A DNA stretch of 64,000 nt from positions 330,806 to 394,805 of the forward strand of contig JADJXT010000001.1 in assembly GCA_016720115.1 (NCBI GenBank), given 5' to 3'. The notes beneath the pieces were generated by a model, which worked only from the letters and a program-made list of their open reading frames with translations, made no database searches and was not told where the DNA came from. The first letter of the stretch is position 1. Each line of letters begins with the position of its first letter. This document shows positions 7,278-63,343 of this stretch, piece by piece. This DNA comes from Sphingomonadales bacterium. GTDB taxonomy: Bacteria; Pseudomonadota; Alphaproteobacteria; Sphingomonadales; Sphingomonadaceae. The position numbers were made by a program, and so were the translations under genes.

Positions 7278-7287
7278 CCTCTTCCTC

Positions 7288-7321: not shown

Positions 7322-7325
7322 ACAA

Positions 7326-7340
7326 GTCAATCTGATTGAC
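7326..7340. promoter_or_regulatory. Palindrome GTCAAT-CTG-ATTGAC upstream of the TonB receptor gene; candidate operator
   Basis: 6-bp perfect inverted arms with a 3-nt spacer, about 50-60 nt upstream of the receptor start codon. The function is inferred. Confidence 0.3.
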
Positions 7341-7395
7341 AGCATTGCCAATGGACCACTTATCAACGTAATTGTCAACTTTTGCGTTATTGCCG

Positions 7396-8547: not shown

Positions 8548-8633
8548 TGTCAACTCCATTGATATTTTTCCTGACATGACAATAAAATATCCATTTGTCT
8601 AATAATTCTTTCAGGAATGTGTTATCGGGGGTT

Positions 8634-9290: not shown

Positions 9291-9293
9291 CGG

Positions 9294-9716: not shown

Positions 9717-9816
9717 GTCTTTTGTCCTGTTTGTCAATTTATGTGTTGATCCTGCTTGCCGCCAGCACCCACCAGCTGTCAACGAAAGACTTGAATCGGA
9801 AAAGCAGTAAATTTAG

Positions 9817-9845
9817 TTGACAATATTGCCGGTGCGTTGGACTAT
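9817..9845 (+). promoter_or_regulatory. Candidate sigma-70 promoter for the crotonase/CoA-ligase/VOC/flavin-reductase operon
   Basis: TTGACA at 9817-9822, a 17-nt spacer, then GACTAT at 9840-9845. It lies about 50 nt upstream of ATG 9895. Pattern only. Confidence 0.3.
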
Positions 9846-9894
9846 TGCTTAGGTCAGGAGATGTAGCCAGCAGACTGGCAAGGAGAGTACATCA

Positions 9895-10752: not shown

Positions 10753-10756
10753 TATA

Positions 10757-50770: not shown

Positions 50771-50807
50771 CAGCCAGATGCTGGACGGACAAGTCCAATT
50801 TTTGTAG
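50062..50807 (+). CDS. IS5-family DDE transposase OrfAB, requiring a -1 frameshift near 50389-50397; aberrant C-terminus
   Basis: TTG 50062 follows GGGAGG. OrfA reads LSDDEWALIGPLLP...WRQLPDEYGKWNSVFRRYRRW. A shift on ATAAAAAGG gives ..CAVGIKKGTQEAEALGRSRGGFTTKLH.., ADKGYDADAIR, and RNLVERLFNKLKNWRRVANRYD. The expected ~30 further residues are replaced by TSQMLDGQVQFL-stop. Confidence 0.8.
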
Positions 50808-50901: not shown

Positions 50902-51954
50902 ATGCACATACTAGACCGCCATATCTCACCGTCCGAACGGCCTTATGTCATCGCCGAAGTTTCGGCCAATCACGGTGGCGAACTAAACCGGGCGCTCGAC
51001 ATGGTTGCTGCCGCTGCAGAAGCTGGGGCAAGTGCGGTAAAGTTTCAAACCTACACGGCGGACACCATTACCATCAAATGCGATCGCCCCGAATTTCGCA
51101 TTGAGAACCCGGACAGTTTGTGGAGCGGACGCACGCTCCATGACCTTTACGATGAAGCGCATATGCCCTGGGAATGGCATGCCCAATTGTTCGAAGAAGC
51201 GCGCCGGCAGGGCATTCATTCCTTTTCAAGCGCCTTTGATGAAACGGCCGTCGATTTTCTCGAGGCGCTCGATGCGCCTTGCTATAAGATTGCCTCTTTC
51301 GAGCATACATTCATTCCCTTGCTCGAAAAAGTCGCCGAAACGAAAAAGCCAATCATCGTGTCGTGCGGATTGGCAACGATGGACGATATTAGAGAGACCA
51401 CCCAAGCTTTGCGGAACGCAGCTTCTGGTCCGGTCTGCTTGCTCGCCTGTACCAGCAACTATCCCGCAGCTATCGAAGATAGCAACTTGAGGCGCATTCC
51501 GGCGCTCAGGGCCGCCTTTCCCGATTGTCAGATCGGATTGTCGGACCATACAATCGGAAATACGGCCGCCATCGCTGCAGTCGCGCTAGGTGCATGCGTC
51601 TTTGAAAAGCATTTCAAGCTTGCGGATGACAATAGTTCGGTTGACGCCGCCTTTTCAGCTACGCCTGAAGAGCTGCGCGATTACGTCAATGCAATCAACG
51701 ATGCCTGGTCTGCATTGGGGAAAGCCAAATTTGGCCCGGCCAGCGCAGCAGAGGCGCAATCGTCCCAATTTCGCCGATCAATCTATGTCGTTGCCGACAT
51801 AGAAGCAGGCGAGGCGTTTACCACAGAGAATATCCGTTGCATCCGGCCGGGGCTTGGCTTGCATAGCAAGCATTTCAAATCGGTTCTCGGGAAGACGGCG
51901 ACGCGCGCTATTGCATATGGTTCGCCGCTCAGCCTCGAACTCGTCTCTAACTGA
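50902..51954 (+). CDS. pseI: Pseudaminic acid synthase (NeuB-family nonulosonic acid synthase)
   Basis: YVIAEVSANHGG, AVKFQTYTADT, FSSAFDETAVDFLE, YKIASFE, and a C-terminal SAF/antifreeze-like domain. The Pse rather than Neu/Leg assignment relies on the neighbouring pseB/C/F/G/H genes. Confidence 0.8.
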   Translation: MHILDRHISPSERPYVIAEVSANHGGELNRALDMVAAAAEAGASAVKFQTYTADTITIKCDRPEFRIENPDSLWSGRTLHDLYDEAHMPWEWHAQLFEEARRQGIHSFSSAFDETAVDFLEALDAPCYKIASFEHTFIPLLEKVAETKKPIIVSCGLATMDDIRETTQALRNAASGPVCLLACTSNYPAAIEDSNLRRIPALRAAFPDCQIGLSDHTIGNTAAIAAVALGACVFEKHFKLADDNSSVDAAFSATPEELRDYVNAINDAWSALGKAKFGPASAAEAQSSQFRRSIYVVADIEAGEAFTTENIRCIRPGLGLHSKHFKSVLGKTATRAIAYGSPLSLELVSN

Positions 51955-53350
51955 GATAGGACAGAATTTTTACTGCCGCAGCCTGTTCAAGCGCGGTTTT
52001 ATCGGTGCCGTAAGAGGCATCGTAGCTTCGCATAACCGCGCGCCAGCCGGAGTTCGCATAGAATGCCTGCAGCTGGAAATACAGATCGTTGTTCCAGCCA
52101 TCCGTTTCATACACCAGATTCTGCTCTACAAAACCGTTATAGTCATAGTTGAGGGCATCAAGAGCATCCATATAAGCAACAGGCCGTCCACCCCGCAGTA
52201 TATTCATGGCAACACCGCTATTGCCGCAGAAAACCAGGTCGCAGGCGGTGATCTCTTCATCGAGAGGGTTTCCAAGGGTAATTTCGAGATTGTTGTAACG
52301 CGCAACAAGATCAGAAAAATCGGACTTGAGCAGGCCAACGGGATGGTTGCGTATCAATATCTCAGGCTGCGGCTGGCAGACACTGATCGCCTCAACCAGT
52401 GCCGAAACCGTTTCCGGGCGCGTAAGCGCCGTCAGGAAAATGCCGACCTTTTGTATGGATGCGCGCCATTCCATCGGGCGGGCCGCTCCAGGCTGCCCTA
52501 CTAGCACGACGGCCGCGCTGCACCGGCTGTGGCGTTCATAAGTTCTTCGGATCGCGTCACCGTAAAATACCGCGCAATCGGCGAGCACAGGCGGCACCAA
52601 TGCCCCATTCGCCGGAACAGGTGCATGGTTGAAATATATGACTTTGCGCCCAGCCTTATGGGCTGCTGCCGCAAGCCCCAGCGCCTCGGGGCTGTAATTG
52701 CTTGCAACAATCACCGCCTTCAGTCGGGTGTTCTGCTCCAACAGCAGTGAGAAGCAGATATAATATGCTAGTCCGCTGGCAATGCGGGCCGATGGCATGA
52801 AACTATATGCCTGCGCGAGTTGTGAAAGAAATGGCCATAATCGGACCGCTCGTCGCGTAAAATTTATTGCCGTGCGAAATTGACCCTTGTTCAGGATATG
52901 CCCTCGTTTCAGAGACAGGCGATGTATCTCTTGTCCTGGCACGAAAGCAGCAAAGCGCTCAATTGTATGGCGTTCGTTATCAAAATTGGCAATCGCGATC
53001 GCCGCAGCATTGCCGGAATCGCGTGGGCCGATCGAAACGGCGCATTTCAGCATGTACAGAAACAGAACCAATGGCTTCAGAACTTTTGAGTCCAAGCCTG
53101 CATAGAGTGCGTCGACTATCCGGTAGAGTGGATTCTTGTTCTTTATCTCGGTAAAAACCGCGCCACGCGTTGCAGACGTTTCCATGCGACGGATAATCCG
53201 CAGCGCCACTGCCAGATTGTAACGCTCGCGAGGGCGCTCGAGGGTGGCCTCGCACGTTGCCTCAAGGGGCTCGTATTCGGAGAGTTCCGTCCAGTTGAAG
53301 TTAGTATAGTCCACGATATCTCTTCCAAGCCTAGCTCGCGGTTCCAACAA
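51947..53350 (-). CDS. Hypothetical protein with KpsS/Capsule_synth-like C-terminal motifs; candidate CMP-ulosonic-acid (pseudaminyl) transferase
   Basis: 467 aa, no TM. EILIRNHPVG.. and LVFCGNSGVAMNILRGGRPVAYMDALDALNYDYNGF resemble the KpsS blocks (..VIKHHP.. and ..VVTINSTAGISAL..KP..G.ALYD..GL) as I remember them. It lies between pseI and the flippase gene. The function is inferred. Confidence 0.45.
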   Translation of the reverse strand: MLEPRARLGRDIVDYTNFNWTELSEYEPLEATCEATLERPRERYNLAVALRIIRRMETSATRGAVFTEIKNKNPLYRIVDALYAGLDSKVLKPLVLFLYMLKCAVSIGPRDSGNAAAIAIANFDNERHTIERFAAFVPGQEIHRLSLKRGHILNKGQFRTAINFTRRAVRLWPFLSQLAQAYSFMPSARIASGLAYYICFSLLLEQNTRLKAVIVASNYSPEALGLAAAAHKAGRKVIYFNHAPVPANGALVPPVLADCAVFYGDAIRRTYERHSRCSAAVVLVGQPGAARPMEWRASIQKVGIFLTALTRPETVSALVEAISVCQPQPEILIRNHPVGLLKSDFSDLVARYNNLEITLGNPLDEEITACDLVFCGNSGVAMNILRGGRPVAYMDALDALNYDYNGFVEQNLVYETDGWNNDLYFQLQAFYANSGWRAVMRSYDASYGTDKTALEQAAAVKILSYLS

Positions 53351-53469
53351 ACTGCTGGCATCACGACTTGACCCCTATATCGCAGGTAATTGTTAACAAA
53401 TTGGGTTTACGAACTGTTAGCCATAATCATAGCAACCGATGTGGGACTGGGATAGCAATCGTGTCGTCG

Positions 53470-54762
53470 ATGAAACACAGCTTGTTCAAAATGCGGGAAA
53501 AGGGCTATCTGGTGATGCAGTCGCTTTTCTATGCTGTGGCAAACAGCATAGAGGCGCTGGTGCCGTTTCTGCTAGCGCCTATCCTGACGCGCACCCTCAA
53601 CCCGAGCGAATATGGCATCTGGGTTCTCTTTATTACCTACGCTACATTTTTGCGCCCGATCGTCGGATTGACGACTCAGGATGCTATCCGGATGCGCTTT
53701 CTGGACTTTGACCAGAAACAGCTCGATCAGTTCACGCACACCGTGTTGTTCATCATGCTCACGATGGCTGCCATAGTTTCAGCCATTACATTCGCATTCA
53801 GCGGCCCGCTGGCGTCGGCTACAAAATTCCCTGCCAACTGGCTGGTCAGTGTGGTTATCGCCGCTTTCCTCTTTGAAGTATTTTATACTGCGCTTGCCCT
53901 GCTGCAGTTCCACCAGCGTCGCCGGGCCTTCTTGATGACCCAGGTCGTACAGGCGGTATTGAGCATGCTGCTGATATCGGCATTTCTTTATGCTGGCTGG
54001 GATTGGCGTGGTGTTGTTCTTGGACGCATGATCGGCATGGGGATCGCGACGCTGCTATCCTTGCGCTCGCTAGGGTATAGCCCTTCCATTTTCTTCCGTG
54101 TGCCGCAGCGTTCCTTTTATCGGGACATTGCTTCGTTCGGTGTGGTGTACTGGCCGGCCGGCATGGTCATCATGGCAGTTGCCATGACCGATAAGGTTGT
54201 GGCGGCCCATTATCTTGGTGTTTCTGCCAGCGCGATGTACGGCGTCGCCGCGCTGTTTGCGTCAGCCTACTGGATTGTAAATCACAGTTTTGTGCTCGCT
54301 TGGACTCCTTGGCTGTTCAAAAAGCTGAAGGCGTCTTCGGAAGACGGGATGCGCGAAGTCGTTTCGATTTCGATGCTTTATTTTATCCTGGCACCGATTG
54401 CAGCTGTTGCCTTTTATTTCATATCGCTGGTGGTCGCGCCGATCCTGCTTGGCGAAGCGTTCCACAGCGCAATTCCGCTGCTGCGCTATATAATGATAGC
54501 TATCGTTTTGCAGGGCTTCTTTGTTCACAACATGAAATACCTTCACTATGACAAGGATATACGGGTGATGTCCTTGTGCAGTGCGCTTACCATTGCCCTG
54601 AACATTGTGCTTAGCGTGCGCTGGGCGCCGGAAATGGGAATCCGCGGTATCATGCTTGCAACAGTAGTTTCTTTTGGCGCGACATTCCTGATAAGCGGAA
54701 TGATCGTTGTCGCTCGTTTCACCAATTTCCAAGGGGGAGTTAAGTCCGTTGTTTCACGATAA
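53470..54762 (+). CDS. Wzx-type flippase / polysaccharide biosynthesis protein (MOP superfamily), second copy
   Basis: 12-14 TM spans, N-terminus SLFYAVANSIEALVPFLLAPILTRTLNPSEYGIWVLF. The start was chosen at ATG 53470, and the ORF is open from 53368. Confidence 0.75.
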   Translation: MKHSLFKMREKGYLVMQSLFYAVANSIEALVPFLLAPILTRTLNPSEYGIWVLFITYATFLRPIVGLTTQDAIRMRFLDFDQKQLDQFTHTVLFIMLTMAAIVSAITFAFSGPLASATKFPANWLVSVVIAAFLFEVFYTALALLQFHQRRRAFLMTQVVQAVLSMLLISAFLYAGWDWRGVVLGRMIGMGIATLLSLRSLGYSPSIFFRVPQRSFYRDIASFGVVYWPAGMVIMAVAMTDKVVAAHYLGVSASAMYGVAALFASAYWIVNHSFVLAWTPWLFKKLKASSEDGMREVVSISMLYFILAPIAAVAFYFISLVVAPILLGEAFHSAIPLLRYIMIAIVLQGFFVHNMKYLHYDKDIRVMSLCSALTIALNIVLSVRWAPEMGIRGIMLATVVSFGATFLISGMIVVARFTNFQGGVKSVVSR

Positions 54763-55759
54763 AAGCATTCTCGTAACCGGTGGTACCGGTTCGTTCGGTC
54801 GCCGTTTCATCAAGACGCTCCTCGAGCGCTATAACGCGCGTCGTGTCATCGTGTTTTCGCGCGACGAGTTCAAACAATCGGTAATGCAGGAGAAGTATGA
54901 CGACCCTGCACTGCGCTACTTCTTGGGCGATATTCGTGATCGGGATCGTTTGATGCAGGCGATGGAAGGCGTGGATATTGTGGTTCATGCGGCAGCCCTC
55001 AAGCAGGTGCCCGCGCTCGAGTATAATCCCGCCGAAGCGATCAAAACCAACATTCACGGAACGGAAAATGTGGTCGCCGCGGCCTTGGCACACAACGTCG
55101 AGAAAGTGATCGCGCTTTCAACCGACAAGGCCGCGGCGCCGGTGAATCTATATGGCGCCACCAAGCTTACAGCGGAGAAAATTGCCATTTCTGCGAACAA
55201 TTTCGCTGGCAAGCGCGACACGCGGCTTTCGGTGGTGCGTTACGGCAACGTCATCGGATCGCGCGGTTCAGTCATTCCGCTTTTCCAGAAACTCCTGGCA
55301 GAAGGAGCCAAGGAATTCCCGATTACCGATCCCAACATGACCCGGTTCTTGCTGACCCTTCAGCAAAGTGTCGATTTCGTTATTGATTGCGGCGCGCGCA
55401 TGTGGGGTGGAGAGACCTTCATTCCACGTATCCCGTCTGCAACCATCGGGACCATGGCGGAGGCCATCGCACCTGACATGCCGCAGAAAGTGGTTGGCAT
55501 TCGTCCGGGCGAAAAACTGCACGAAGTGCTTTGCCTGCCGGATACTGCTTGGCAAACCATAGAGTTCGAACGGCATTTCGTGGTCAAACCGTCGTTCAAG
55601 TTCAACCGCATTGATGTTGACTATCTGACAGCGGCGAATGGAGAGAAGGGCAAGCCTGTCGCAGGTGACTTCGACTATAACTCGCTAAATAATGAGGACT
55701 ATATTTCGGCCGAAGCGTTGCGTGCGATGATCGAGCAAGCAATGCCTTTTGACGCCTGA
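54749..55759 (+). CDS. pseB: UDP-GlcNAc 4,6-dehydratase (inverting)
   Basis: TTG 54749 follows GGGGGAG (MFHDKSILVTGGTGSFG). VFSRDEFKQ, GDIRD, and catalytic STDKAAAPVNLYGATKLTAEK. Confidence 0.9.
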   Translation: MFHDKSILVTGGTGSFGRRFIKTLLERYNARRVIVFSRDEFKQSVMQEKYDDPALRYFLGDIRDRDRLMQAMEGVDIVVHAAALKQVPALEYNPAEAIKTNIHGTENVVAAALAHNVEKVIALSTDKAAAPVNLYGATKLTAEKIAISANNFAGKRDTRLSVVRYGNVIGSRGSVIPLFQKLLAEGAKEFPITDPNMTRFLLTLQQSVDFVIDCGARMWGGETFIPRIPSATIGTMAEAIAPDMPQKVVGIRPGEKLHEVLCLPDTAWQTIEFERHFVVKPSFKFNRIDVDYLTAANGEKGKPVAGDFDYNSLNNEDYISAEALRAMIEQAMPFDA

Positions 55760-55774
55760 TCGACAGGACAATAC

Positions 55775-56956
55775 GTGCGCAGCCGCATACCCTATAGCCG
55801 CCAGACAATCGACGATGCCGACATAGCCGCCGTTGCCGATTGCCTGCGTTCCGATTTCCTGACGCAAGGTCCGCAAACGCGGGCCTTTGAGGAGGCTGCG
55901 GCTGCCTATGTCGGCTGTGCGCACGCGATCGCCGTTTCGAATGGGACGGCCGCACTCCATCTTGTTTGCCAAGGCCTCGGGCTTGGGCCGGGCGGTCTTT
56001 TATGGACGTCCCCCAACAGCTTTGTCGCTTCGGCCAATGCCGGGCGCTATATGGGCGCGGACGTCGATTTCGTCGACATCGACCCGCAAACCGGCTCAAT
56101 CGACCCGGTCGCGCTCGAAGCAAAGCTGTCAAAAGCCCGCGCTGCAAACCGCAAGCCCGATATATTGATTGCCGTTCATTTTGCTGGGCACAGCTTTGGA
56201 TTTGATCGCGTTGCAGCATTATGTGCCGAATATGGGGTCGCGCTGGTTGAGGATGCGGCTCATGCATTTGGCGCAGCCTATGAAGACGATCCAATGCGCA
56301 AGGTTGGCAGCCATCCGCAAAGTGTGGCTACAACCTTCAGCTTTCACCCCCTGAAGTCGATTACCACCGGCGAGGGGGGAATGATTGTTACCTGGTCGGA
56401 CTCGCTCGCTCGTGATCTGGCCATGCTGCGCAGTCATGGGATTACCAAGGACTCCGCCATGATGACTCATATGCGTGAGGAAGACGGTGACTGGTATTAT
56501 GAACAGCACCTGCTAGGTTTCAATTACCGGATCTGCGATATTCAGGCTGCCCTTGGCGTTAGCCAGATGAAAAGAATCGATGCCTTCATGGCGGCGCGTC
56601 GTTTACGGGCACGGCGCTACGCAGAGCAGCTTTCCGGCCTGCCTTTGCACCTGCCGCTCGCAACCGACAGGTCATCCTGGCACCTGTATGTAGTGCGACT
56701 TGATCCGGGGCAAGCAAGTATTACGCGTCGGGCGCTGTTCGACAGGCTGCGCGGTGAACGCATCGAAGCCCATGTCCATTACATTCCGATCCATACCCAG
56801 CCCTATTACCGCAAACTGGGCTTCGCACCTGGCGACTTCCCGCAGTCCGAACATTATTATGAAAATTGCCTCAGCTTGCCGATCTATCCTCTGATGACAG
56901 ACGACGATCAGGATAGGGTGGTTGCCTGCCTGCGAGATGCACTTTTGTATGCGTAA
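55775..56956 (+). CDS. pseC: UDP-4-amino-4,6-dideoxy-N-acetyl-beta-L-altrosamine transaminase
   Basis: IPYSRQTIDDADIAAVADCLRSDFLTQGP and PLP-lysine block FSFHPLKSITTGEGGM. GTG start. Confidence 0.9.
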   Translation: MRSRIPYSRQTIDDADIAAVADCLRSDFLTQGPQTRAFEEAAAAYVGCAHAIAVSNGTAALHLVCQGLGLGPGGLLWTSPNSFVASANAGRYMGADVDFVDIDPQTGSIDPVALEAKLSKARAANRKPDILIAVHFAGHSFGFDRVAALCAEYGVALVEDAAHAFGAAYEDDPMRKVGSHPQSVATTFSFHPLKSITTGEGGMIVTWSDSLARDLAMLRSHGITKDSAMMTHMREEDGDWYYEQHLLGFNYRICDIQAALGVSQMKRIDAFMAARRLRARRYAEQLSGLPLHLPLATDRSSWHLYVVRLDPGQASITRRALFDRLRGERIEAHVHYIPIHTQPYYRKLGFAPGDFPQSEHYYENCLSLPIYPLMTDDDQDRVVACLRDALLYA

Positions 56957-57647
56957 TATAGCGATTGTGCAGGCCCGGATGGGTTCGTCGCGACTGCCGG
57001 GGAAGGTTCTGAAGCCACTAGCCGGACGGCCGGTTCTCGACCATGTTGTATCTAGGGTCGCCTCGACGGAACGCATTGACGGCGTTGTTGTCGCAACGTC
57101 TGTTTTGCCCGGCGATGACGCTATCGCCAATTATTGCGGAGAGAAAGGTTGGTCTTACGTCAGGGGGCCTGAGCGTGACGTATTGACGCGCTATGCCAGT
57201 GCGGTCCGGGCCTCCAGCGCGGACATCGTCGTACGTGTAACGAGCGACTGCCCGCTATTCTCACCACGAATCCTGGACGATATGCTCGCCGCATTCGATC
57301 CTTCCTGCATGGATTATATGTCGACCAACTGGCCTGAGCGTAGCTTTCCAATAGGCTTGGACTGTGAAATCATGCGTGGTGACAGCTTGCTCGAGATATC
57401 CGAAATCGCGACCGACCCCTATGATCGAGAACATGTAACTCCCTATTTCTATCGCAACCCTGATCGTTTCCGGCTTGTGGGGCATGCCTGCGCCCGCCCC
57501 CTGGATCATCTGAGCATAACACTTGATACTGCGGAGGATTATCAACGTCTGCTGGAACTGCTCGATGCCCATCCCGAACTTGTCGATCCGATGGTTGACG
57601 TTATAGAGATCGTTGCACGCCATTTTGACGCGGAGAGTTCCGCTTAA
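56949..57647 (+). CDS. pseF: Pseudaminic acid cytidylyltransferase (SpsF/PseF family)
   Basis: MRNIAIVQARMGSSRLPGKVLKPLAGRPVLDHVV, and EHVTPYFY near the C-terminus. ATG 56949 overlaps the pseC end by 8 nt. Confidence 0.85.
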   Translation: MRNIAIVQARMGSSRLPGKVLKPLAGRPVLDHVVSRVASTERIDGVVVATSVLPGDDAIANYCGEKGWSYVRGPERDVLTRYASAVRASSADIVVRVTSDCPLFSPRILDDMLAAFDPSCMDYMSTNWPERSFPIGLDCEIMRGDSLLEISEIATDPYDREHVTPYFYRNPDRFRLVGHACARPLDHLSITLDTAEDYQRLLELLDAHPELVDPMVDVIEIVARHFDAESSA

Positions 57648-57667: not shown

Positions 57668-59176
57668 TCAGTCAATGCGTTTCGCAGCATCAAGCCAATC
57701 GGGCCGCTCGGTCGACTGCCGAATATCGAACCCGGCATCTCGATGCAGCCTTTCGGATGCCGTATTTGCACTGTGGATTTTGCTAACGATGCGGTTAACC
57801 GACGGATGTGATAGGTGCAGCGCCCGTTCAGCAGCGCAGTACAGGGGCAAGCCCATCCGCCTTCCGTGCCAAGCGGGCACGAGATAAATGGATAGATAGG
57901 CACAGGCACCGCCATCACTAAGATCAAATCGAACTACGCCGACTGGTTCACCACCTCGTGTGAAGACACGAAAAACGCAATCTGGGTCGACTAGCTGCTC
58001 GCCAAGCCAAGTGACGTGAGCGCCAAATTGAGGTTTTTCCGAGCCATCCCAATTGTGCTGCCAGTTCCGCTCATCGGTTCGCCAATCCAGCAAATCACGA
58101 GCATCCCCAGCCTCCACGTTCCTGAAATCCAATGCCAGCGCCTTTATCCATGAGGCTAAGCGGATTGCTCCCCGTCCGTCGACAATTTGGGGGCCAAGGT
58201 CTGACAGCTTCTTTCGGAGCGCTTCATCGGACACAAGCCACAAAATGCCTCGCGCGATTGATGCGGCATCTACTTCTGAATAATGACCCAGATAGCATAC
58301 AGCCTCAGCGGCCACCATGGTTTTAATTTGTGGCAGTTGGTTTTCCGCAGTCGATATAACAAGCGATGGAAGTCCGAGACATAGGCGCTCCCACAACATC
58401 ACCCCGCCCGCCCCAAGAGCTATATCGGCTGTAGCCATCAGTTCGGCGACGTCTTTCTGGGAGGGCTGTCTGTGCAGGTTTATGTGCGGCAACTGTGAGA
58501 TGGGGTCGAACAACGCCGGGTCAATTCGCGCCCCAGGGCCGAGCACAACATCAACGTCCATCTGATCCAGAGTTGCAACAGCTTCCAGCGCCTTGGCCGT
58601 CTCTCCAGTAGGATCGCTGCCGCCGAAGCAGATGTTGAGCCGGAGTCGCGTATGGCTGCTCGGCCGGGTACCGTTTGCCAACTGCACGATATGGTGAGAC
58701 AGAGGCAGGTAGGCAGACCCGGCGAGCAGGATGCCTTGGCGTTTCCGCCTCACACTGCCGTGCGGTCGAACGATAATGTCCGCAGCGTCCGCCGCATCGA
58801 GATCGTCAAGCACCACAAGCGGTTTCTCTGCGGTGGCAGTCTCGACTTCCCATTGCGATACCCAACCATATTGGTCGAGGAGCAGAACCTCTGGGTGCCA
58901 ACCGTGTCGATCCATAGCCTGCATCGTTGCCACCGGGTCGACCTCCGCCGGAGATAATACCAAAACCTGTGTCTCAACCGGGAAATATGCCTCTGAATAA
59001 GAAGCGCCCTCTGCATTTGTGACCAGCAATATCTCGGTATCGCCACTCGTTGCCAAGGCATTGGCCACGGCTGATGTCCGGGCAAAATGCCCCATGCCGA
59101 CAGTTGCGCCTGCATCGGCGCGGATGGCGACCTTAATCGGCGCGGACATAATATGTAAATCGAATATGGCGTCCAT
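57668..59176 (-). CDS. pseG/pseH: Fused PseG (UDP-2,4-diacetamido-2,4,6-trideoxy-altropyranose hydrolase) and PseH (GNAT N-acetyltransferase)
   Basis: The N-terminal ~340 aa is GT-B/GT28-like (KVAIRADAGATVGMGHFARTSAVANAL ... GGSDPTG ... ADIALGAGGVMLWERLCLGLPSLV). The C-terminal ~150 aa is GNAT (FRNVEAGDARDLLDWRTDE ... VPAWHGRRMGLPL ... SANTASERLHRDAGF). The start may be ATG 59149. Confidence 0.8.
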   Translation of the reverse strand: MDAIFDLHIMSAPIKVAIRADAGATVGMGHFARTSAVANALATSGDTEILLVTNAEGASYSEAYFPVETQVLVLSPAEVDPVATMQAMDRHGWHPEVLLLDQYGWVSQWEVETATAEKPLVVLDDLDAADAADIIVRPHGSVRRKRQGILLAGSAYLPLSHHIVQLANGTRPSSHTRLRLNICFGGSDPTGETAKALEAVATLDQMDVDVVLGPGARIDPALFDPISQLPHINLHRQPSQKDVAELMATADIALGAGGVMLWERLCLGLPSLVISTAENQLPQIKTMVAAEAVCYLGHYSEVDAASIARGILWLVSDEALRKKLSDLGPQIVDGRGAIRLASWIKALALDFRNVEAGDARDLLDWRTDERNWQHNWDGSEKPQFGAHVTWLGEQLVDPDCVFRVFTRGGEPVGVVRFDLSDGGACAYLSIYLVPAWHGRRMGLPLYCAAERALHLSHPSVNRIVSKIHSANTASERLHRDAGFDIRQSTERPDWLDAAKRID

Positions 59177-60653
59177 TGTAGGTAGTCACTGGGCGATACT
59201 GCTGAAGGATGGAATTAAACCTTGAATCTTCTGAGAGTGCCTGGTTCCAGTCGATTGCAATGTGCCGCAAAGGCCAACGGGAAGTGCGGTCGACGATCAG
59301 CACATCAGGGGGCGTATCTTCCCAAAGCTGCAGCATTTGATTGTGCAGCATTTTTCGACCAGGCTCTTTCAGCTTGATTGGGGGCAGTAACTTTCCGACA
59401 TTCTCATGCTTATCAAACGGCTTGAGTTCAGCAGCAACATAGGCATTGTTCATCAACGGCGTCCACCGAAGTCCACCGTGCATGACGATATATTCGTTAT
59501 AGGGTGACGGATGAGCGTTCAGGAGCGCGACTTTTTTACCTGCTACCGATTGGCCGCTTTCGCTGATGGCCCTTTCCAGTTCATCCAGACGGTCGTGATA
59601 TTCCAGTGTTGCGCGGAATTGTGTTTGAATGGAAAACAGCAGATACAGCCCAAGCGCAAAATTGGCCCACAGTCGGAAACTTTTTGCATTGGCCCACCAC
59701 CACATCACATAGATCATTATAATCGGGAAGAGATGGTGGGAAAACCAGCGCTCTTGCGCCCAAGCAGCGATCACCGCACCAGTTGCGGCGGCAAAAAACA
59801 ATAACGTGTCCCGAATCGGCGCGCCAAATATCCGCGAGACAAACAACAGGGCAAACGCTGGCAACATGTTGACCGCTGCCTTGATCCAGTTTGCAGTCGG
59901 GTCAACCAGCGCAGCATCGATAGCGCTGAACATAGCGCCAAATGTTGCGCGCTGTACTGGATCGAGACCCAGCCATAAGAACAGGTAAAGGAAAACGACG
60001 GAACCAGCCACGACGTTCTCGGTTCGAAAAAGCGAGCTTGGTTTGCGTTGTAGGCCGGCATCGGCAAGTTCGACCAGCACAACTACCATACTATATAGAT
60101 ATTTGAAAAGTAATGTGAAGCCTATCCACAGACCCAATATTGCTCTCAAGGGCCGACCTATCCGTTTTGAGTTTGGGTCGGAAACGCGCAGGATCAAATA
60201 TGGCCAGAGTCCGGCCACGACGATATGCTCGCGCAGTCCAAAGACATTTTTGAAAAGTATTGGCAAAACAGCAAGAACAGCCACTGAAATGACCAAGAAC
60301 GCGGGCGATGCACCGACTGTGGTGCGGCGTATATAATATGCTAGCGCTGCGCTAAAGAGTACCGCTGCGCCAGCCATTGCAACGACAACAAGATCGAGTC
60401 GTGTCCCGGTCGCATCGCTAATTCGCGTTCCCAGCGAAAACCAGAGCTTCTCAACTGGCGGAAAATAGATGCCGTAATTGTGGAACGCGCCGCCCAAGAC
60501 GATGGAGAGACGACCCGATAGTGCACTGCCAGCTAGATCTTGATGGATCGGATAATAGGCACCGTAAAACAGAAGGGTAATCACAAATAGGGCGGCTGCA
60601 ATGCCCATATGCAGCCCCAAATCGGCGACGAAATTCAACTTTTGGGGCGGCAT
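59133..60653 (-). CDS. Polytopic membrane protein with C-terminal soluble domain; GT-C-like (ArnT/PMT-type) by architecture only
   Basis: About 11-12 TM spans followed by a hydrophilic domain of about 150 aa (..YHDRLDELERAISESGQSVAGKKVALLNAHPSPYNEY..). ATG 60653 follows GAGG, and the ORF is open to 60719. No diagnostic motif was recognised. Confidence 0.45.
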   Translation of the reverse strand: MPPQKLNFVADLGLHMGIAAALFVITLLFYGAYYPIHQDLAGSALSGRLSIVLGGAFHNYGIYFPPVEKLWFSLGTRISDATGTRLDLVVVAMAGAAVLFSAALAYYIRRTTVGASPAFLVISVAVLAVLPILFKNVFGLREHIVVAGLWPYLILRVSDPNSKRIGRPLRAILGLWIGFTLLFKYLYSMVVVLVELADAGLQRKPSSLFRTENVVAGSVVFLYLFLWLGLDPVQRATFGAMFSAIDAALVDPTANWIKAAVNMLPAFALLFVSRIFGAPIRDTLLFFAAATGAVIAAWAQERWFSHHLFPIIMIYVMWWWANAKSFRLWANFALGLYLLFSIQTQFRATLEYHDRLDELERAISESGQSVAGKKVALLNAHPSPYNEYIVMHGGLRWTPLMNNAYVAAELKPFDKHENVGKLLPPIKLKEPGRKMLHNQMLQLWEDTPPDVLIVDRTSRWPLRHIAIDWNQALSEDSRFNSILQQYRPVTTYNGRHIRFTYYVRAD

Positions 60654-60905
60654 ATTACCTCTGCATTGGGGATGCTCAAAGCCGATGGCACCATTATTAT
60701 CATGCTTCAAAATGCACAATGGCTAAGTCGCTATTGATAAATGGTTTTATAGGATAGGTATCGTTGAGCGAATTGCCCGCTCCAAGATAGCGCGGAGCTG
60801 ACTGCTCAAGCAAAAATTGAACTTCATGAACAAACTTTACTCGCGAAATCGGGTTGGACGCATTAGACGCAGGCACAGAATATGTCTCTCTAGTCAGACA
60901 GGCTT

Positions 60906-62054
60906 ATGGAATTGAACAGCAAGCAGAAATATCGAGTCCTGAGCGTCTTTGGAACGCGCCCGGAAGCCATAAAGATGGCGCCTGTGGTCAAGGCGCTGGC
61001 GTTTGCCGATGATATTGACGGACGAGTTTGCGTTACCGCGCAGCATCGCGAAATGCTGGATCAGGTGCTCGATCTGTTTGCGATCAAGCCGGAGTACGAC
61101 CTGAACCTGATGAAGCCGGGCCAGGGGCTTGAAGATATTACTGCGGGCGTGTTGAAGCTTTTGACGCCTGTGCTGGACGATTTCCAGCCTCAGCTGGTGC
61201 TGGTCCACGGTGATACCACCACCACTCTGGCAGCGTCTCTGGCGGCCTATTACCGACGGATTCCTGTCGGACATGTGGAGGCAGGTTTGCGAACCGGCAA
61301 CATTTTGTCGCCCTGGCCGGAGGAGGTGAACCGCAAGGTAGCTGGCGCGATCGCCAGCCTGCATTTCGCGCCGACCGAACAATCGAAACGCAATTTGCTC
61401 GCCGAAGCGGTCCCCGATGCCGCTATTTTGGTGACGGGCAACACGGTAATCGATGCTCTTTTGGAGGTGGTTGATCGGCTGGAGAGCGATCCCAAACGCA
61501 TGGCCGGGTTTGAACAGCGTTTCCAACTGGATCCGGGCAAACGGATGATTCTGGTAACGGGCCATCGCCGGGAAAGCTTTGGCGATGGATTTCTTCGTAT
61601 CTGCGAGGCACTCGCCAGTCTCGCAGCGCGTGATGATGTCGAAATCGTCTATCCCGTCCATCTCAATCCCAATGTCAAAGGACCGGTGGAAGAAAGATTG
61701 AGCGGCTTTCCCAATGTGCATTTGATCGAACCCCAGGACTATCTGCCCTTTGTCTATCTGATGAGCCGGGCATATGTCATTTTGACCGATTCCGGCGGGG
61801 TGCAGGAAGAGGCCCCTTCACTGGGCAAACCGGTGCTGGTCATGCGCGATACCACGGAAAGGCCCGAGGCGGTCGAGGCCGGTACCGTCCGCCTGGTTGG
61901 CACGGATACCAGACTGATTGTTTCCGAAGTCTGCCGCCTGCTGGATGACCAGGATGCCTATGACGCGATGAGCGTGGCGCACAATCCTTATGGAGATGGC
62001 AAGGCCGTTGACCGGATATTAAACCGGATCCGGCAATATGCTGCGGAACAATAG
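60906..62054 (+). CDS. wecB: UDP-N-acetylglucosamine 2-epimerase (non-hydrolysing)
   Basis: [42 protein letters not shown] and [21 protein letters not shown]. Confidence 0.9.
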
Positions 62055-62071
62055 ACCAGCTTGCGAATCCG

Positions 62072-63343
62072 ATGGACCTGAACCGCTTCTCCACTATTTC
62101 GATCATTGGCCTTGGCTATATCGGCTTGCCGACCGCCGCGATGTTTGCGTCGCGCAAGATCAGGGTCATCGGCGTCGATGTGAACGAGGATACGGTTGAT
62201 ACCATCAACCGGGGCGAGATCCACATTGTCGAGCCTGACCTGGACATGGTGGTTCATGCAGCCGTTGCACAAGGCTATTTGCGTGCAACCGTTGCCCCTG
62301 AACCTGCCGAGGCATTTCTGATTGCGGTGCCGACGCCGTTCAAGGGCGACAATCATGAGCCTGATCTGCGGTTCATCGAGGCCGCCTGCCGGTCGATCGC
62401 ACCGGTACTGGAACCCGGCAATCTCGTGATTTTGGAGTCAACCTCGCCGGTCGGTGCGACGGAAGCGATGGCGGAATGGCTGGCGCAGGCACGGCCCGAC
62501 CTGACTTTCCCCCAGAAAGCGGGCGAATTGTCCGATATCCGCATTGCCCATTGCCCCGAACGGGTTTTGCCCGGCAAGGTGATGCAGGAACTGATTTCCA
62601 ATGACCGCGTGATTGGCGGCATGACGCCTCGCTGCTCCGCGCTTGCGGCGCAGCTTTACAGCGTCTTCGTTACCGGAGAGTGCGTTACCGCCTCAAGCCC
62701 GAGGGTAGCGGAAATGGCAAAGCTGACCGAAAACAGCTTTCGGGATGTGAACATCGCTTTTGCCAATGAATTGTCGATTATCTGTGACAAATTTGGCATC
62801 AGTGTCTGGGAACTGATCCAGCTCGCCAACCGCCATCCGCGCGTCAATGTGTTACAGCCGGGTGCGGGAGTCGGTGGGCATTGCATCGCCTGCGATCCCT
62901 GGTTCATCGTTTCCTCGGCGCCGGAAGAGGCGCGGCTGATCCGCACCGCGCGCGAAGTCAATGATGCCAAACCGTATTGGGTGCTCGACAAGATCCGGTC
63001 TGAAACCTGCAAGATTCTGGAATCCTCTGCCGGAAGAAGCGCGGCAGACCTCAGCATTGCTTGCTATGGCATTGCGTTCAAACCCGATATCGATGATCTG
63101 CGCGACAGCCCGGCGCTGGAGATCGTGCAAAGCCTGACGCAAAGCCATCCGGGTTCGGTACTGGTTGTGGAGCCCAATATCGAAGTGCTGCCGGAATCGT
63201 TGAATGGTGCGAGGCTGGTTTCCATGCTCGATGCGGCAGAGGCCGATCTGCATGTGCTGCTGGTCGATCATAAATATTTCCGGGCGTTGAAGCCCAATAC
63301 TTCTGCCATGATTATCGACACCCGCGGGATCTGGACCCGTTAA
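62072..63343 (+). CDS. wecC: UDP-N-acetyl-D-mannosamine dehydrogenase
   Basis: ISIIGLGYIGLPTAAMFA and catalytic block GAGVGGHCIACDPWF. It lies immediately downstream of wecB. Confidence 0.9.
   Translation: MDLNRFSTISIIGLGYIGLPTAAMFASRKIRVIGVDVNEDTVDTINRGEIHIVEPDLDMVVHAAVAQGYLRATVAPEPAEAFLIAVPTPFKGDNHEPDLRFIEAACRSIAPVLEPGNLVILESTSPVGATEAMAEWLAQARPDLTFPQKAGELSDIRIAHCPERVLPGKVMQELISNDRVIGGMTPRCSALAAQLYSVFVTGECVTASSPRVAEMAKLTENSFRDVNIAFANELSIICDKFGISVWELIQLANRHPRVNVLQPGAGVGGHCIACDPWFIVSSAPEEARLIRTAREVNDAKPYWVLDKIRSETCKILESSAGRSAADLSIACYGIAFKPDIDDLRDSPALEIVQSLTQSHPGSVLVVEPNIEVLPESLNGARLVSMLDAAEADLHVLLVDHKYFRALKPNTSAMIIDTRGIWTR

What the first reader, a model, noticed from the sequence alone, without database searches (positions are those of the whole stretch)
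51947..53350. Uncharacterised KpsS-like protein next to pseI: candidate for a new pseudaminyltransferase family
This 467-aa soluble protein has no match to the common GT2/GT4 signatures. Its C-terminal half, however, carries blocks (..ILIRNHP.. and ..VFCGNSGVAMNILRGGRPVAY...ALNYDYNGF) that recall the KpsS/KpsC Capsule_synth family of CMP-Kdo-dependent transferases. Module 2 needs an enzyme that uses CMP-Pse, and no other soluble transferase gene is present. KpsS-like proteins have been proposed as Pse transferases in Acinetobacter capsule loci, and an RkpZ/LpsZ homolog accompanies the rhizobial Pse capsule genes. The N-terminal ~200 aa is unassigned. The motif match is from memory, not from a search.
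Basis: inference. Interest (0 to 1): 0.7.

Follow-up and report, generated by a model that had tools for sequence, protein, structure and literature searches.

The report
Candidate new pseudaminic-acid transferase family
This unannotated gene most likely encodes a new type of enzyme that attaches the bacterial sialic-acid-like sugar pseudaminic acid to a cell-surface glycan, and it always travels with a lipid flippase and a membrane glycosyltransferase; no member has been tested biochemically.

Summary
The ORF is real (51947-53350, minus strand; 467 aa, probably 455 aa from a GTG at 53314). The quoted motifs are its most conserved elements. It matches no Pfam or NCBIfam model. It is not a KpsS/KpsC (Capsule_synth) member: it lacks the QXXXD nucleophile motif and gives no PF05159 hit.

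The model (pLDDT 84) is a two-Rossmann GT-B fold. R334-x-H336-P337 and S378 are near-invariant across 88 diverse relatives and form the (K/R)XHP cytidine-nucleotide signature of sialyl- and Kdo-transferases. The profile aligns these blocks onto the CMP-binding domains of WbbB (GT99) and CroT.

The family has at least 943 clusters at 50% identity, all unnamed. In 36 Sphingomonadales loci the gene sits head-to-head with a Wzx-like flippase, next to true pseB/C/F/G/H/I and usually a GT-C-fold membrane protein, with no other transferase nearby. Distant members are fused to PseH-like domains. Another forms the N-terminal domain of a 1024-aa protein in the Sinorhizobium rkp-3 Pse-capsule regions.

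Best reading: a CMP-Pse-dependent pseudaminyltransferase founding a new sequence family. The acceptor and the stereochemistry are unknown.

The parts
51947..53350 (-). Target CDS: 467-aa longest ORF (TTG start). The likely true start is GTG at 53312-53314, giving 455 aa. Candidate CMP-Pse-dependent GT-B glycosyltransferase.
53033..53221 (-). N-terminal helical bundle (residues ~44-106) that precedes the Rossmann domains. Conserved within the clade (R54, E57-T58-S59, R62, K72-N73). Function unknown; possibly acceptor or membrane contact (inference).
52481..53017 (-). N-terminal Rossmann-type domain (residues ~112-290). Carries near-invariant N125, P221 (SNYSPE, 52685-52702) and H242 (NHAPVP, 52613-52630). 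H242 is a candidate catalytic base (inference).
52166..52465 (-). C-terminal Rossmann-type domain (residues ~296-395): the nucleotide-binding half.
52340..52351 (-). R334-N335-H336-P337 = (K/R)XHP cytidine-nucleotide-binding motif. Conservation across 88 relatives: R 87/88, H 88/88, P 87/88.
52217..52225 (-). G376-N377-S378 loop at the start of a helix (S/T in 86/88). It aligns with the phosphate-binding 'NSS'/'YSS' loops of WbbB and CroT.
53368..54762 (+). Divergently transcribed Wzx-like MOP flippase (PF01943). Public gene call is 433 aa. Present beside the target in 32 of 36 loci, and also beside a ~25%-identical family member (L039).
59133..60719 (-). 528-aa polytopic membrane protein with a C-terminal soluble domain (public start M23, 506 aa). 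GT-C-fold candidate with invariant D61 (60537-60539) in the first extracytoplasmic loop. Found in 26 loci.
50902..51954 (+). pseI (pseudaminic acid synthase; TIGR03586, 452 bits, above cut-off).
54707..55759 (+). pseB (TIGR03589, above cut-off).
55775..56956 (+). pseC (TIGR03588, above cut-off).
56922..57647 (+). CMP-sugar synthetase of the CTP_transf_3 family: a divergent PseF-type cytidylyltransferase and the presumed source of CMP-Pse.
57668..59176 (-). pseG-pseH fusion: PseG hydrolase domain at residues 15-281, GNAT domain at 349-488.
60906..63343 (+). UDP-GlcNAc 2-epimerase and a UDP-ManNAc-dehydrogenase-type enzyme (UDP-ManNAcA supply). They lie next to the trio here and in 3-4 other loci. 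Possible acceptor-sugar genes (a lead only).

Best explanation
The gene encodes a cytoplasmic (probably membrane-peripheral) GT-B-fold glycosyltransferase that uses CMP-pseudaminic acid, made by the adjacent pseBCHGI and cytidylyltransferase genes, as its donor. It founds a sequence family not represented in Pfam or NCBIfam. The C-terminal Rossmann domain binds CMP: R334 would contact the cytosine, and H336 and S378 the phosphate. The N-terminal domain and helical bundle would hold the acceptor. Because the QXXXD nucleophile is missing, it probably works by direct displacement, like inverting GT-B sialyltransferases and TagF-like enzymes, and not by the covalent double-displacement mechanism of KpsC, WbbB and KrkA. 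Invariant H242 (or D403) is a candidate general base. In Sphingomonadales its product is a lipid-linked Pse-containing intermediate on the inner face of the membrane. The co-inherited Wzx-like flippase moves this intermediate across the membrane, and the co-inherited GT-C-fold enzyme transfers it to the final periplasmic acceptor. Shown: the fold, the motif conservation, the synteny, the domain fusions and the homology to the rhizobial capsule protein domain. Inferred: the donor, the mechanism, the lipid-linked acceptor and the roles of the flippase and GT-C.
For: Fold: AlphaFold model with pLDDT 84 and pTM 0.83 shows two Rossmann halves. Foldseek against the PDB gives 195 hits at E<=1e-3, all GT-B-type. 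Motif: R334, H336, P337 and S/T378 are conserved in 86-88 of 88 relatives that share only 21-53% identity. (K/R)XHP is described as the CMP-binding motif of sialyltransferases and of the GT99/GT107 Kdo transferases, with the His on the phosphate and a Ser-Ser loop alongside (PMC12887879). The family profile aligns exactly these blocks to WbbB (5FA0, E 0.003) and to Bcs3-CroT (8A0C, E 0.0015), the latter covering its CMP-contacting loops 2 and 3. Context: in 36 Sphingomonadales loci the recurrent neighbours are the flippase (32 loci), PseC (30), PseB (27), the GT-C candidate (26), PseG (26), PseI (23) and PseF types (17+8). The Pse enzymes score above curated cut-offs in both locus types. Distant members (~25% identity) are still next to PseB/C/I. 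L038 has its own PseG, and there the family domain is fused to the only PseH-like GNAT in the cluster. Rhizobia: the N-terminal domain of a 1024-aa protein in the rkp-3 regions of S. meliloti Rm41 and S. fredii NGR234 belongs to the family (115 and 114 bits). Rm41's K antigen is GlcA plus a Pse derivative, and rkp-3 encodes its Pse synthesis and export (PMC4881576). Remote relatives: 28/88, 12/88 and 7/88 members weakly match TIGR04396, NF046086 (the BFO_1060 family) and TIGR04326. BFO_1060 is an ortholog of the knock-out-validated T. forsythia Pse/Leg transferases (PMC5420450). Specificity control: the profile hits no other GT-B protein encoded in the window.
Against: There is no biochemical or genetic evidence for any member of this family. 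The target itself gives no hit to any curated family, and the links to WbbB, CroT, BFO_1060 and TIGR04396 are weak (E 1e-3 to 1e-7, 60-115 residues around the HP motif) and come from profiles or from other members. The narrow clade profile scores the rhizobial proteins at only ~19 bits, so that link is transitive. The best structural matches are UDP-GlcNAc 2-epimerases, not CMP-dependent transferases, so fold alone does not identify the donor. HP-type motifs also occur in CDP-alcohol-using TagF-like enzymes. Three pseI-positive Sinorhizobium replicons lack the domain, and one domain-positive replicon was not among the listed close pseI hits. One locus (L006) has the trio with no pse genes within 10 kb.
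Confidence: 0.75

Rival explanations
1. Three-component variant. The target is not a glycan-extending transferase but a polyprenyl-phosphate pseudaminyltransferase: it charges undecaprenyl phosphate with Pse from CMP-Pse. The Wzx-like protein flips Und-P-Pse, and the GT-C enzyme adds single Pse residues to a periplasmic acceptor (glycolipid, polysaccharide or protein). This is a sub-model of the best explanation that differs only in the acceptor.
For: The trio of cytoplasmic transferase, flippase and GT-C matches the defining logic of three-component periplasmic glycosylation systems (PMC11127046). The module is autonomous: none of the 36 loci has a phosphoglycosyltransferase, GT2, GT4, Wzy or Wzc homolog within 10 kb, and no second GT recurs. 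The GT-C candidate's best structural match is AftD, which uses a polyprenyl-monophosphate sugar donor.
Against: Known systems use a GT2 synthase and small GtrA- or SMR-type flippases, whereas Wzx/MOP flippases typically handle Und-PP-linked glycans (established knowledge). The family's relatives (the rhizobial capsule protein and the T. forsythia NulO transferases) act on sugar acceptors. I know of no confirmed polyprenyl-phosphate-nonulosonate intermediate. The GT-C candidate also resembles STT3 and PglB, which use PP-linked donors.
Confidence: 0.3
2. It is a member of the KpsS/KpsC/KpsS1-type retaining ulosonic-acid transferases (Capsule_synth; GT107/GT118/GT99) and works by a covalent Asp-linked intermediate.
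For: It shares the (K/R)XHP and S-rich loop. There is a weak profile hit to WbbB GT99 (E 0.003). KpsS1 of this group is a proven Pse transferase (PMC12887879).
Against: No PF05159 hit for the target at E<=1, and none among the families listed for its 88 relatives. A true RkpZ-like protein scores 4e-47 and shows QVEDD...RPHP, while the target has no QxxxD anywhere and the equivalent column is variable (D/N/S; Arg in the target). KpsC chains in the PDB were not hit even at E<=10. The N-terminal Rossmann domain is full-size, not reduced.
Confidence: 0.05
3. It is a biosynthetic or editing enzyme of the Pse pathway and not a transferase: for example an alternative nucleotide-sugar hydrolase or 2-epimerase (PseG- or NeuC-like), or a CMP-Pse hydrolase.
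For: The top Foldseek matches are UDP-GlcNAc 2-epimerases, including hydrolysing NeuC. Some members are fused to a PseH-like GNAT, the same partner that PseG has in this window.
Against: A complete PseB/C/H/G/I/F set already exists in the window and in L021, and L038 has its own PseG, so no pathway step is vacant. The target gives no hit to PF02350 or TIGR03590, whereas the window's real epimerases score 1e-103 to 1e-119. Co-inheritance with a flippase and a GT-C, and occurrence as a domain of a rhizobial capsule protein, fit a transferase better.
Confidence: 0.08
4. It is a TagB/TagF-like polyol-phosphate transferase that uses a CDP-activated alcohol, and is only coincidentally linked to the Pse genes.
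For: The best PDB sequence hit is the TagF-like CroT domain of Bcs3 (E 0.0015). The T. forsythia relatives were also noted to have a TagB-type domain (PMC5420450).
Against: None of the 36 loci has a recurrent CDP-glycerol or CDP-ribitol synthesis gene; the only cytidylyltransferases are of the PseF/CTP_transf_3 type. Linkage to Pse genes holds from 25% to 100% identity and includes gene fusions.
Confidence: 0.04

Closest known systems
Tannerella forsythia nonulosonic-acid transferases Tanf_01245 (Pse derivative) and TFUB4_00887 (Leg derivative); NCBIfam NF046086 'BFO_1060 family glycosyltransferase'
   Same: Soluble GT-B/TagB-like proteins with an HP motif, encoded beside NulO biosynthesis genes. 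They act before Wzx-type flipping of a lipid-linked glycan. Twelve of 88 relatives of the target weakly match this model around the HP region.
   Different: The target itself does not match the model (E>1), and relatives score <=18 bits against a 200-bit cut-off. The similarity covers only ~80 residues. The phylum differs, and the downstream partner here is a GT-C candidate.
WbbB N-terminal module (GT99), KpsC/KpsS (GT107, Pfam Capsule_synth) and KpsS1 (GT118): retaining beta-Kdo and Pse transferases
   Same: [quoted passage not shown] The profile hits WbbB at E 0.003.
   Different: No QXXXD nucleophile, no PF05159 match, and a full-size N-terminal Rossmann domain with an extra N-terminal helical bundle. 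A covalent-adduct mechanism is therefore unlikely.
Bacterial GT-B sialyltransferases (GT38, GT52, GT80)
   Same: CMP-nonulosonate donor and an HP motif. Probably a direct-displacement mechanism with a base supplied by the N-terminal domain (inference).
   Different: No detectable sequence-family membership. The D/E-D/E-G motif is not clearly present (D124-N125-E126 is only suggestive). No sialyltransferase appears in the Foldseek top 50.
1024-aa protein of the Sinorhizobium rkp-3 K-antigen regions (Rm41 pSymB L041:13599-16673; NGR234 pNGR234b L042:11584-14658); possibly RkpY (my recollection, not verified)
   Same: Its N-terminal ~430 residues are a member of the same family, with SPxxxA, QHA, KPHP, NSSV and DYYGFV blocks. 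It is encoded beside Pse biosynthesis genes.
   Different: Only ~22% identical to the target over 218 aa. It is fused to a GT-D-like domain and operates in an ABC-transporter (KpsM/T-type) capsule pathway alongside a true Capsule_synth protein, not with a Wzx flippase and a GT-C.
Three-component periplasmic glycosylation systems (GtrA/GtrB/Gtr*; the pentofuranose systems of Kelly et al. 2024)
   Same: The gene-set logic: a cytoplasmic enzyme that makes a lipid-linked sugar, a flippase and a GT-C.
   Different: The charging enzyme would be a CMP-dependent GT-B, not a GT2 or PRPP-dependent synthase. The flippase is MOP/Wzx-type, and the sugar would be a nonulosonic acid. None of this has a precedent that I could find.

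Membership tests
Pfam PF05159 Capsule_synth (KpsS/KpsC; CAZy GT107) | Significant match to the PF05159 profile | tested here: not met
   Zero Pfam families for the target at E<=1. PF05159 is not among the families listed for the 88 relatives. Positive control: the Rm41 RkpZ-like ORF scores E 4e-47. KpsC chains in the PDB were not hit at E<=10.
Retaining ulosonic-acid transferases (GT99/GT107/GT140; by extension GT118) | [quoted passage not shown] | tested here: not met
   There is no QxxxD anywhere in the target. The aligned columns are T/S307 and a variable 311 (D 35, N 24, S 8; Arg in the target). Only 6 of 88 sequences have any QxxxD in that region. Control: RkpZ-like has QVEDD255...RPHP291. 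Motif definition from PMC12887879.
CMP-dependent sialyl-/Kdo-transferases (GT29/38/42/52/80/99/107) | (K/R)XHP CMP-binding motif with a Ser/Thr phosphate loop | tested here: met
   R334 87/88 (one K), H336 88/88, P337 87/88, S/T378 86/88. These align to WbbB RAHP...INSSV and CroT KVHP...DYSS.
Retaining Kdo transferases (KpsC/WbbB architecture) | [quoted passage not shown] | tested here: inconclusive
   The model has six N-domain strands and resembles canonical GT-B enzymes (TMt up to 0.59). KpsC and WbbB are absent from the Foldseek top 50.
GT-B fold glycosyltransferase superfamily | Two Rossmann-like domains with an interdomain cleft | tested here: met
   pLDDT 84 model. Foldseek: 195 PDB chains at E<=1e-3, best 2e-8, all GT-B-type. 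Twenty-four of 88 relatives match PF13439.
CAZy GT118 (KpsS1 pseudaminyltransferase) | Sequence similarity to A. baumannii KpsS1 (~30% identical to E. coli KpsS) | not testable with these tools
   No KpsS1 sequence or CAZy models were available. Indirectly unlikely: KpsS1 is described as ~30% identical to E. coli KpsS (PMC12887879), so it would be expected to match Capsule_synth, which the target does not.
NCBIfam NF046086 BFO_1060 family / TIGR04396 / TIGR04326 'surface carbohydrate biosynthesis' proteins | Score above the curated cut-off (200, 125 and 250 bits) | tested here: not met
   The target has no hit at E<=1. Relatives: 12/88, 28/88 and 7/88 give weak hits (best 4e-4, 2.7e-7 and 1.2e-5; <=25 bits) confined to the HP-to-NSS region. 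This is remote similarity, not membership.
PseG (TIGR03590) / UDP-GlcNAc 2-epimerase (PF02350) | Profile match, and a vacant step in the pathway | tested here: not met
   No hit for the target. PseG is present separately in the window, in L021 and in L038. The window's real epimerases score 1e-103 to 1e-119. The A2 profile does not hit them.
Maf / FlmG flagellin pseudaminyltransferases | MAF_flag10 (DUF115) domain, or a TPR plus GT architecture, with flagellar gene context | tested here: not met
   No Pfam hit of any kind. The neighbours are a flippase and a GT-C candidate, not flagellar genes. FlmG sequences were not compared directly.
GT-C fold glycosyltransferases (for the partner protein at 59133-60719) | Polytopic membrane fold resembling known GT-C enzymes, with a conserved acidic residue in the first extracytoplasmic loop | tested here: met
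   pLDDT 89.7 model. The only credible Foldseek hits are AftD (7e-4), STT3 (9e-4), PglB, ALG3 and Pmt1, although TM-scores are low (0.33-0.43). D61 and E90 are invariant in 33 homologs. No Pfam or PDB sequence match.

The most novel reading that the evidence does not exclude
The target, the Wzx-like flippase and the GT-C-fold protein form a self-contained 'three-component' system for periplasmic pseudaminylation. The GT-B enzyme would load Pse from CMP-Pse onto undecaprenyl phosphate, giving the first polyprenyl-phosphate-linked nonulosonic acid. The GT-C would then decorate a surface glycolipid, glycan or protein of LPS-less sphingomonads. This would be a new entry route (CMP-sugar donor, GT-B synthase, MOP flippase) into a pathway type so far known only for hexoses, Ara4N and pentofuranoses.
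Probability: 0.25. Interest if true: 0.85.

Novelty: new variant of a known kind. Interest (0 to 1): 0.62.

Why it matters
Pseudaminic acid decorates flagella, capsules, LPS and glycoproteins of many bacteria, but few enzymes that attach it have been characterised; those met in this study are Maf and FlmG for flagellin, KpsS1 (GT118), and the genetically implicated T. forsythia enzymes. PMC5420450 states that knowledge of nonulosonic-acid transferases is scarce.

This family is large (at least 943 clusters at 50% identity), entirely unannotated, and consistently linked to Pse biosynthesis. If it is confirmed, it would add a new glycosyltransferase family and annotate hundreds of 'hypothetical proteins'. 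It would also identify the likely Pse-transferring domain of the long-studied rhizobial K-antigen loci and supply a new enzyme for chemoenzymatic synthesis of Pse glycosides.

The conserved partnership with a flippase and a GT-C points to an undescribed Pse-containing surface structure in Sphingomonadales. From general knowledge, these bacteria carry glycosphingolipids instead of LPS.

Tried and rejected
1. Single-sequence and clade-profile searches of the PDB found only a spurious N-terminal match to a protein named 'C3-A'.
2. The search for homologous proteins with the diverse distant-member profile A3 returned only 3 proteins because the word index saturated.
3. The metagenome scan with A3 failed for lack of a conserved stretch. 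With subgroup A4 it gave one 1.7-kb contig, so there is no large sample of distant-member neighbourhoods.
4. tblastn of the target and of P0170 against plasmids found nothing; only P0261 reached the rhizobial replicons.
5. L038's 518-aa membrane neighbour shows no detectable similarity to the GT-C candidate or the flippase, so conservation of the trio beyond Sphingomonadales is unproven.
6. The key rkp-3 papers (Kiss 2001; Palvolgyi 2009) and the GT99 paper are not held, so I could not verify whether the 1024-aa protein is RkpY, nor its mutant phenotype.
7. A literature search for Pse in sphingomonads, and for a Pse pathway with a GT-C and a flippase, found nothing relevant.
8. I considered and rejected the idea that adjacency to the large Wzx/Wzy/Wzc polysaccharide locus (22-49 kb) is functional. 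An IS fragment separates the two, and no other locus repeats the adjacency.
9. The PseG-substitute idea was rejected because PseG co-occurs.


Full report
**Observation**

The ORF at 51947-53350 (minus strand) is present as described: 467 aa from a TTG start. Public gene calls for the identical protein start at V13 (GTG, 53312-53314), which gives 455 aa and leaves a 146-bp divergent intergenic region to the next gene. The protein gives no match to any Pfam or NCBIfam model even at E<=1. It has a single marginally hydrophobic stretch.

PseI, PseB and PseC score above the curated NCBIfam cut-offs. There is a PseG-PseH fusion and a CTP_transf_3 cytidylyltransferase. The window comes from a Sphingomonadales metagenome-assembled genome, and an identical contig comes from a Copenhagen sewage metagenome.

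**A large, unnamed family**

A word-indexed search found 260 homologs. The 120 listed share 56-100% identity, and every one that carries a source name is called 'hypothetical protein' with no precomputed Pfam domain. An exhaustive profile search of 1.84 billion cluster representatives found 943 proteins at E<=1e-3 and 357 at E<=1e-10. Most are full-length single-domain proteins of 420-450 aa.

I aligned 88 diverse members (21-53% identity to the target). One residue is invariant, H336. R334, P337, H242, D403, W436, N125, P221 and S/T378 are conserved in 81-87 of the 88 sequences.

**Fold**

An AlphaFold2 model built from 36 homologs is confident (mean pLDDT 84, pTM 0.83). It shows:
- a disordered N-terminus (residues 1-39);
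- a helical bundle (about 44-106);
- two Rossmann-type halves (about 112-290 and 296-395);
- C-terminal helices.

Foldseek against the PDB gives 195 chains at E<=1e-3, all of the GT-B type. The best are UDP-GlcNAc 2-epimerases (E 2e-8, TM up to 0.59), followed by GT1 and GT4 enzymes and SenB. Neither KpsC nor WbbB is in the top 50. The 'unassigned' N-terminal 200 residues are thus a helical bundle plus the first part of the N-terminal Rossmann domain. Twenty-four of the 88 relatives weakly match the GT4-type N-terminal domain PF13439.

**What the motifs mean**

A 2026 structural paper on the Kdo transferase KrkA describes the (K/R)XHP motif as conserved among sialyltransferases (GT29/38/42/52/80) and retaining Kdo transferases (GT99/107). 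In that motif the Lys/Arg usually contacts the cytosine, the His contacts the CMP phosphate, and a Ser-Ser loop also binds the phosphate. The same paper says that the retaining Kdo enzymes additionally require a QXXXD motif holding the Asp nucleophile (PMC12887879).

The target family has R-x-H-P (87, 88 and 87 of 88) and a G-N-S/T loop (86/88). It has no QXXXD. The equivalent columns are T/S307 and a variable position 311 (D/N/S, and Arg in the target), and the target contains no QxxxD anywhere. As a control, a genuine Capsule_synth protein from S. meliloti shows QVEDD(255)...RPHP(291).

With the 88-sequence profile, the only meaningful sequence hits in the PDB are these two:
- WbbB, the GT99 beta-Kdo transferase (E 0.003; 'ILVRAHP...INSSVGLE').
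- The N-terminal region of Bcs3 (E 0.0015; 'IVKVHP...DYSSI').

[quoted passage not shown] It includes CroT's CMP-contacting loops 2 and 3 (PMC10299916). Both hits therefore place the family's two motifs on cytidine-nucleotide-binding loops.

**Membership in KpsS/KpsC**

This was tested and is not met.
- PF05159 does not match the target, and it is not among the families listed for the 88 relatives. A true RkpZ-like protein scores 4e-47 with the same tool.
- KpsC chains in the PDB are not hit even at E<=10.
- The QXXXD nucleophile is absent.
- The N-terminal domain is full-size.

It does not establish family membership.

**Genomic context**

A scan of one genome per species found 36 loci, nearly all titled as Sphingomonadales or unclassified Pseudomonadota and Alphaproteobacteria (Erythrobacter, Qipengyuania, Pontixanthobacter, Parasphingorhabdus, Sphingopyxis, Novosphingobium, Sphingomicrobium); one short contig is from a 'Rhizobiaceae group' MAG.

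Unbiased clustering of all ORFs in these loci gives this recurrent set:

| Gene family | Loci |
|---|---|
| Target | 34 |
| Wzx-like MOP flippase, always divergent from the target | 32 |
| PseC | 30 |
| PseB | 27 |
| 528-aa membrane protein | 26 |
| PseG(-PseH) | 26 |
| PseI | 23 |
| Cytidylyltransferase, two alternative types | 17 + 8 |

The ~50%-identical Pse genes of the Erythrobacter-type loci are true PseB/C/F/G/I; each scores above its cut-off. No phosphoglycosyltransferase, GT2, GT4, Wzy or Wzc homolog occurs within 10 kb in any locus. The window's large Wzx/Wzy/Wzc polysaccharide locus (22-49 kb) is separated from the Pse module by an IS fragment, so it is an incidental neighbour.

**The membrane partner**

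The 528-aa protein (59133-60719) has no Pfam or PDB sequence match. It folds confidently (pLDDT 89.7) into a polytopic helical domain plus a C-terminal mixed alpha/beta domain. Its only credible structural matches are GT-C glycosyltransferases: AftD (E 7e-4), STT3 (9e-4), PglB, ALG3 and Pmt1. TM-scores are modest at 0.33-0.43. An Asp (D61) in the first extracytoplasmic loop is invariant in 33 homologs, as expected for GT-C enzymes.

The conserved core is therefore a trio: a cytoplasmic CMP-type GT-B, a flippase and a GT-C. This is the gene-set logic of periplasmic glycosylation through a lipid-linked intermediate (PMC11127046).

**Distant members keep the association**

- P0170 (about 25% identical to the target) lies between PseB/PseC genes and a flippase that is a true homolog of the window's (29% identity, E 9e-50).
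- P0271 lies next to PseB, PseC, PseI, a cytidylyltransferase, a Pse-associated methylase, a WbuX amidotransferase and a separate PseG. It is itself fused to the only PseH-like GNAT domain of that cluster.
- P0184 has the same fusion, and P0122 is fused to a methyltransferase.

Because PseG is present separately wherever I looked, the idea that the family is an alternative PseG or epimerase is not supported. This holds despite the epimerase-like Foldseek ranking.

**Link to rhizobial Pse capsules**

A distant member (P0261) detects seven Sinorhizobium/Ensifer replicons by tblastn. In S. meliloti Rm41 pSymB and S. fredii NGR234 pNGR234b the match lies in orthologous 1024-aa proteins that are 73% identical to each other. 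Their N-terminal ~430 residues score 115 and 114 bits against the family profile and carry all the signature blocks: SPxxxA, QHA, KPHP, NSSV and DYYGFV. The C-terminal part contains a GT-D-like domain.

The surrounding genes are the rkp-3 capsule region:
- a KpsM-like permease and a KpsT-like ATPase;
- a true Capsule_synth (RkpZ-like) protein;
- PseI and a PseG/H-like ORF in Rm41, and PseI, PseG and a PseF-like ORF in NGR234.

Rm41's K antigen consists of glucuronic acid and a Pse derivative, and rkp-3 encodes Pse synthesis and export (PMC4881576). A two-domain transferase fits a two-sugar repeat (inference).

There are caveats. The link to the target is transitive: the narrow clade profile gives only ~19 bits, and pairwise identity is 22% over 218 aa. 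Co-occurrence with pseI is also imperfect. At least six of the seven domain-positive replicons have a close pseI, but three pseI-positive Sinorhizobium replicons lack the domain. I recall a gene called rkpY in this region, but I could not verify that it is this ORF.

**Remote curated relatives**

The target hits no NCBIfam model. Among its 88 relatives, 28 weakly match TIGR04396 (best E 2.7e-7), 12 match NF046086 'BFO_1060 family glycosyltransferase' (best 4e-4) and 7 match TIGR04326 (best 1.2e-5). All are far below the cut-offs and confined to the HP-to-NSS region.

BFO_1060 is the strain-92A2 ortholog of Tanf_01245 and TFUB4_00887. These are soluble GT-B/TagB-like proteins with an HP motif whose deletion removes the terminal Pse or Leg derivative from the T. 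forsythia O-glycan (PMC5420450). This is the closest functionally supported analogue. It is a resemblance in how the protein works, not membership in that family.

**Mechanism**

The best-supported reading (confidence about 0.75) is a CMP-Pse-dependent pseudaminyltransferase.

- Shown: the GT-B fold, an invariant cytidine-nucleotide motif, exclusive and deep linkage to Pse biosynthesis including gene fusions, and homology to a domain of the rhizobial Pse-capsule protein.
- Inferred: the donor; direct-displacement chemistry (there is no QXXXD; H242 or D403 could be the base); and an acceptor on a lipid carrier at the cytoplasmic face that is then flipped and used by the GT-C.

Two acceptor models remain open. 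In the first, the enzyme caps an Und-PP-linked sugar supplied by a housekeeping initiating enzyme. This is favoured by the Wzx-type flippase and by the sugar acceptors of the related enzymes. In the second, it charges Und-P directly, giving a true three-component system. This is favoured by the autonomy of the module. I put these at roughly 0.4 and 0.25-0.3.

UDP-ManNAcA synthesis genes lie next to the trio here and in three or four other loci, and ManNAcA is the NulO acceptor in T. forsythia. This is a lead only.

**Novelty and verdict**

CMP-nonulosonate GT-B transferases with an HP motif are a known kind. This is a new, large, unannotated sequence family of that kind with a distinctive partnership (Wzx plus GT-C), so I rate it a new variant of a known kind.

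The 'KpsS-like' label is not. Nothing here is biochemical proof.

Noticed in passing
window 59133-60719 (-): A 528-aa membrane protein with no Pfam or PDB sequence match folds (pLDDT 89.7) like GT-C glycosyltransferases (AftD, STT3, PglB, ALG3, Pmt1). It has an invariant Asp61 in its first extracytoplasmic loop and co-occurs with the target and the flippase in 26 loci. One public source mislabels a homolog as 'PspC' and another as 'MnhG'.
   Followed up: yes
window 60906-62054 (+) and 62072-63343 (+): A UDP-GlcNAc 2-epimerase and a UDP-ManNAc-dehydrogenase-type gene (UDP-ManNAcA supply) sit directly beyond the GT-C gene. Homologs lie near the trio in L006, L008 and L029. ManNAcA is the acceptor of Pse/Leg in the T. 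forsythia O-glycan.
   Followed up: partly
window 50062-50807 (+): Two overlapping ORFs that look like a frameshifted IS5-family transposase (judged from the translation; not run against a profile). They separate the Pse module from the large Wzx/Wzy/Wzc polysaccharide locus at ~22-49 kb. No other genome locus repeats that adjacency.
   Followed up: partly
window 57668-59176 (-): PseG and a PseH-like GNAT are fused into one 502-aa protein. The same fusion occurs in Erythrobacter sp. NAP1 (L021:4057-5694).
   Followed up: partly
window 56922-57647 (+): The cytidylyltransferase of this locus type scores far below the PseF cut-off (E 5e-5) and looks more KdsB-like. Erythrobacter-type loci instead carry a canonical PseF (277 bits). 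Two non-orthologous CMP-Pse synthetase types thus serve the same module.
   Followed up: partly
L041:13599-16673 (S. meliloti Rm41 pSymB) and L042:11584-14658 (S. fredii NGR234 pNGR234b): 1024-aa proteins in the rkp-3 K-antigen regions combine an N-terminal domain of the target's family with a C-terminal GT-D-like domain (PF22882). The PLSDB gene tables do not list them. This may be RkpY (unverified recollection). A 734-aa ORF with no Pfam match (L041:10561-12765) lies next to it.
   Followed up: partly
L038:10001-11818 (P0271), P0184, P0122: In some distant members the family domain is fused at its C-terminus to a PseH-like GNAT (P0271, P0184) or to a SAM methyltransferase (P0122). The L038 cluster also encodes a Pse-associated methylase, a WbuX amidotransferase and HisH/HisF-like proteins, which suggests a modified Pse derivative.
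   Followed up: partly
L006 (uncultured Sphingorhabdus sp.), 6794-11332: The trio of GT-C, flippase and target is intact, but no pse biosynthesis gene lies within 10 kb. In L008 the pse genes are displaced by ~3 kb to the other side. The trio, not the pse genes, is the tightest unit.
   Followed up: no
window 43758-45959 (-): A Wzc-type tyrosine autokinase ends in a (GY)5 repeat tail, 'GYGYGYGYGYGQRD'. It is part of the neighbouring Wzx/Wzy-type polysaccharide locus, which also has three DegT-family aminotransferases, an asparagine-synthase-like amidotransferase and a PglF-like dehydratase.
   Followed up: no
H23: Sphingobium sp. TKS plasmid NZ_CP005085.1, 102634-103650: A sphingomonad plasmid carries pseI (73% identical to the Rm41 protein), yet no homolog of the target was found on any plasmid record. 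At least some sphingomonad Pse loci therefore use a different transferase.
   Followed up: no
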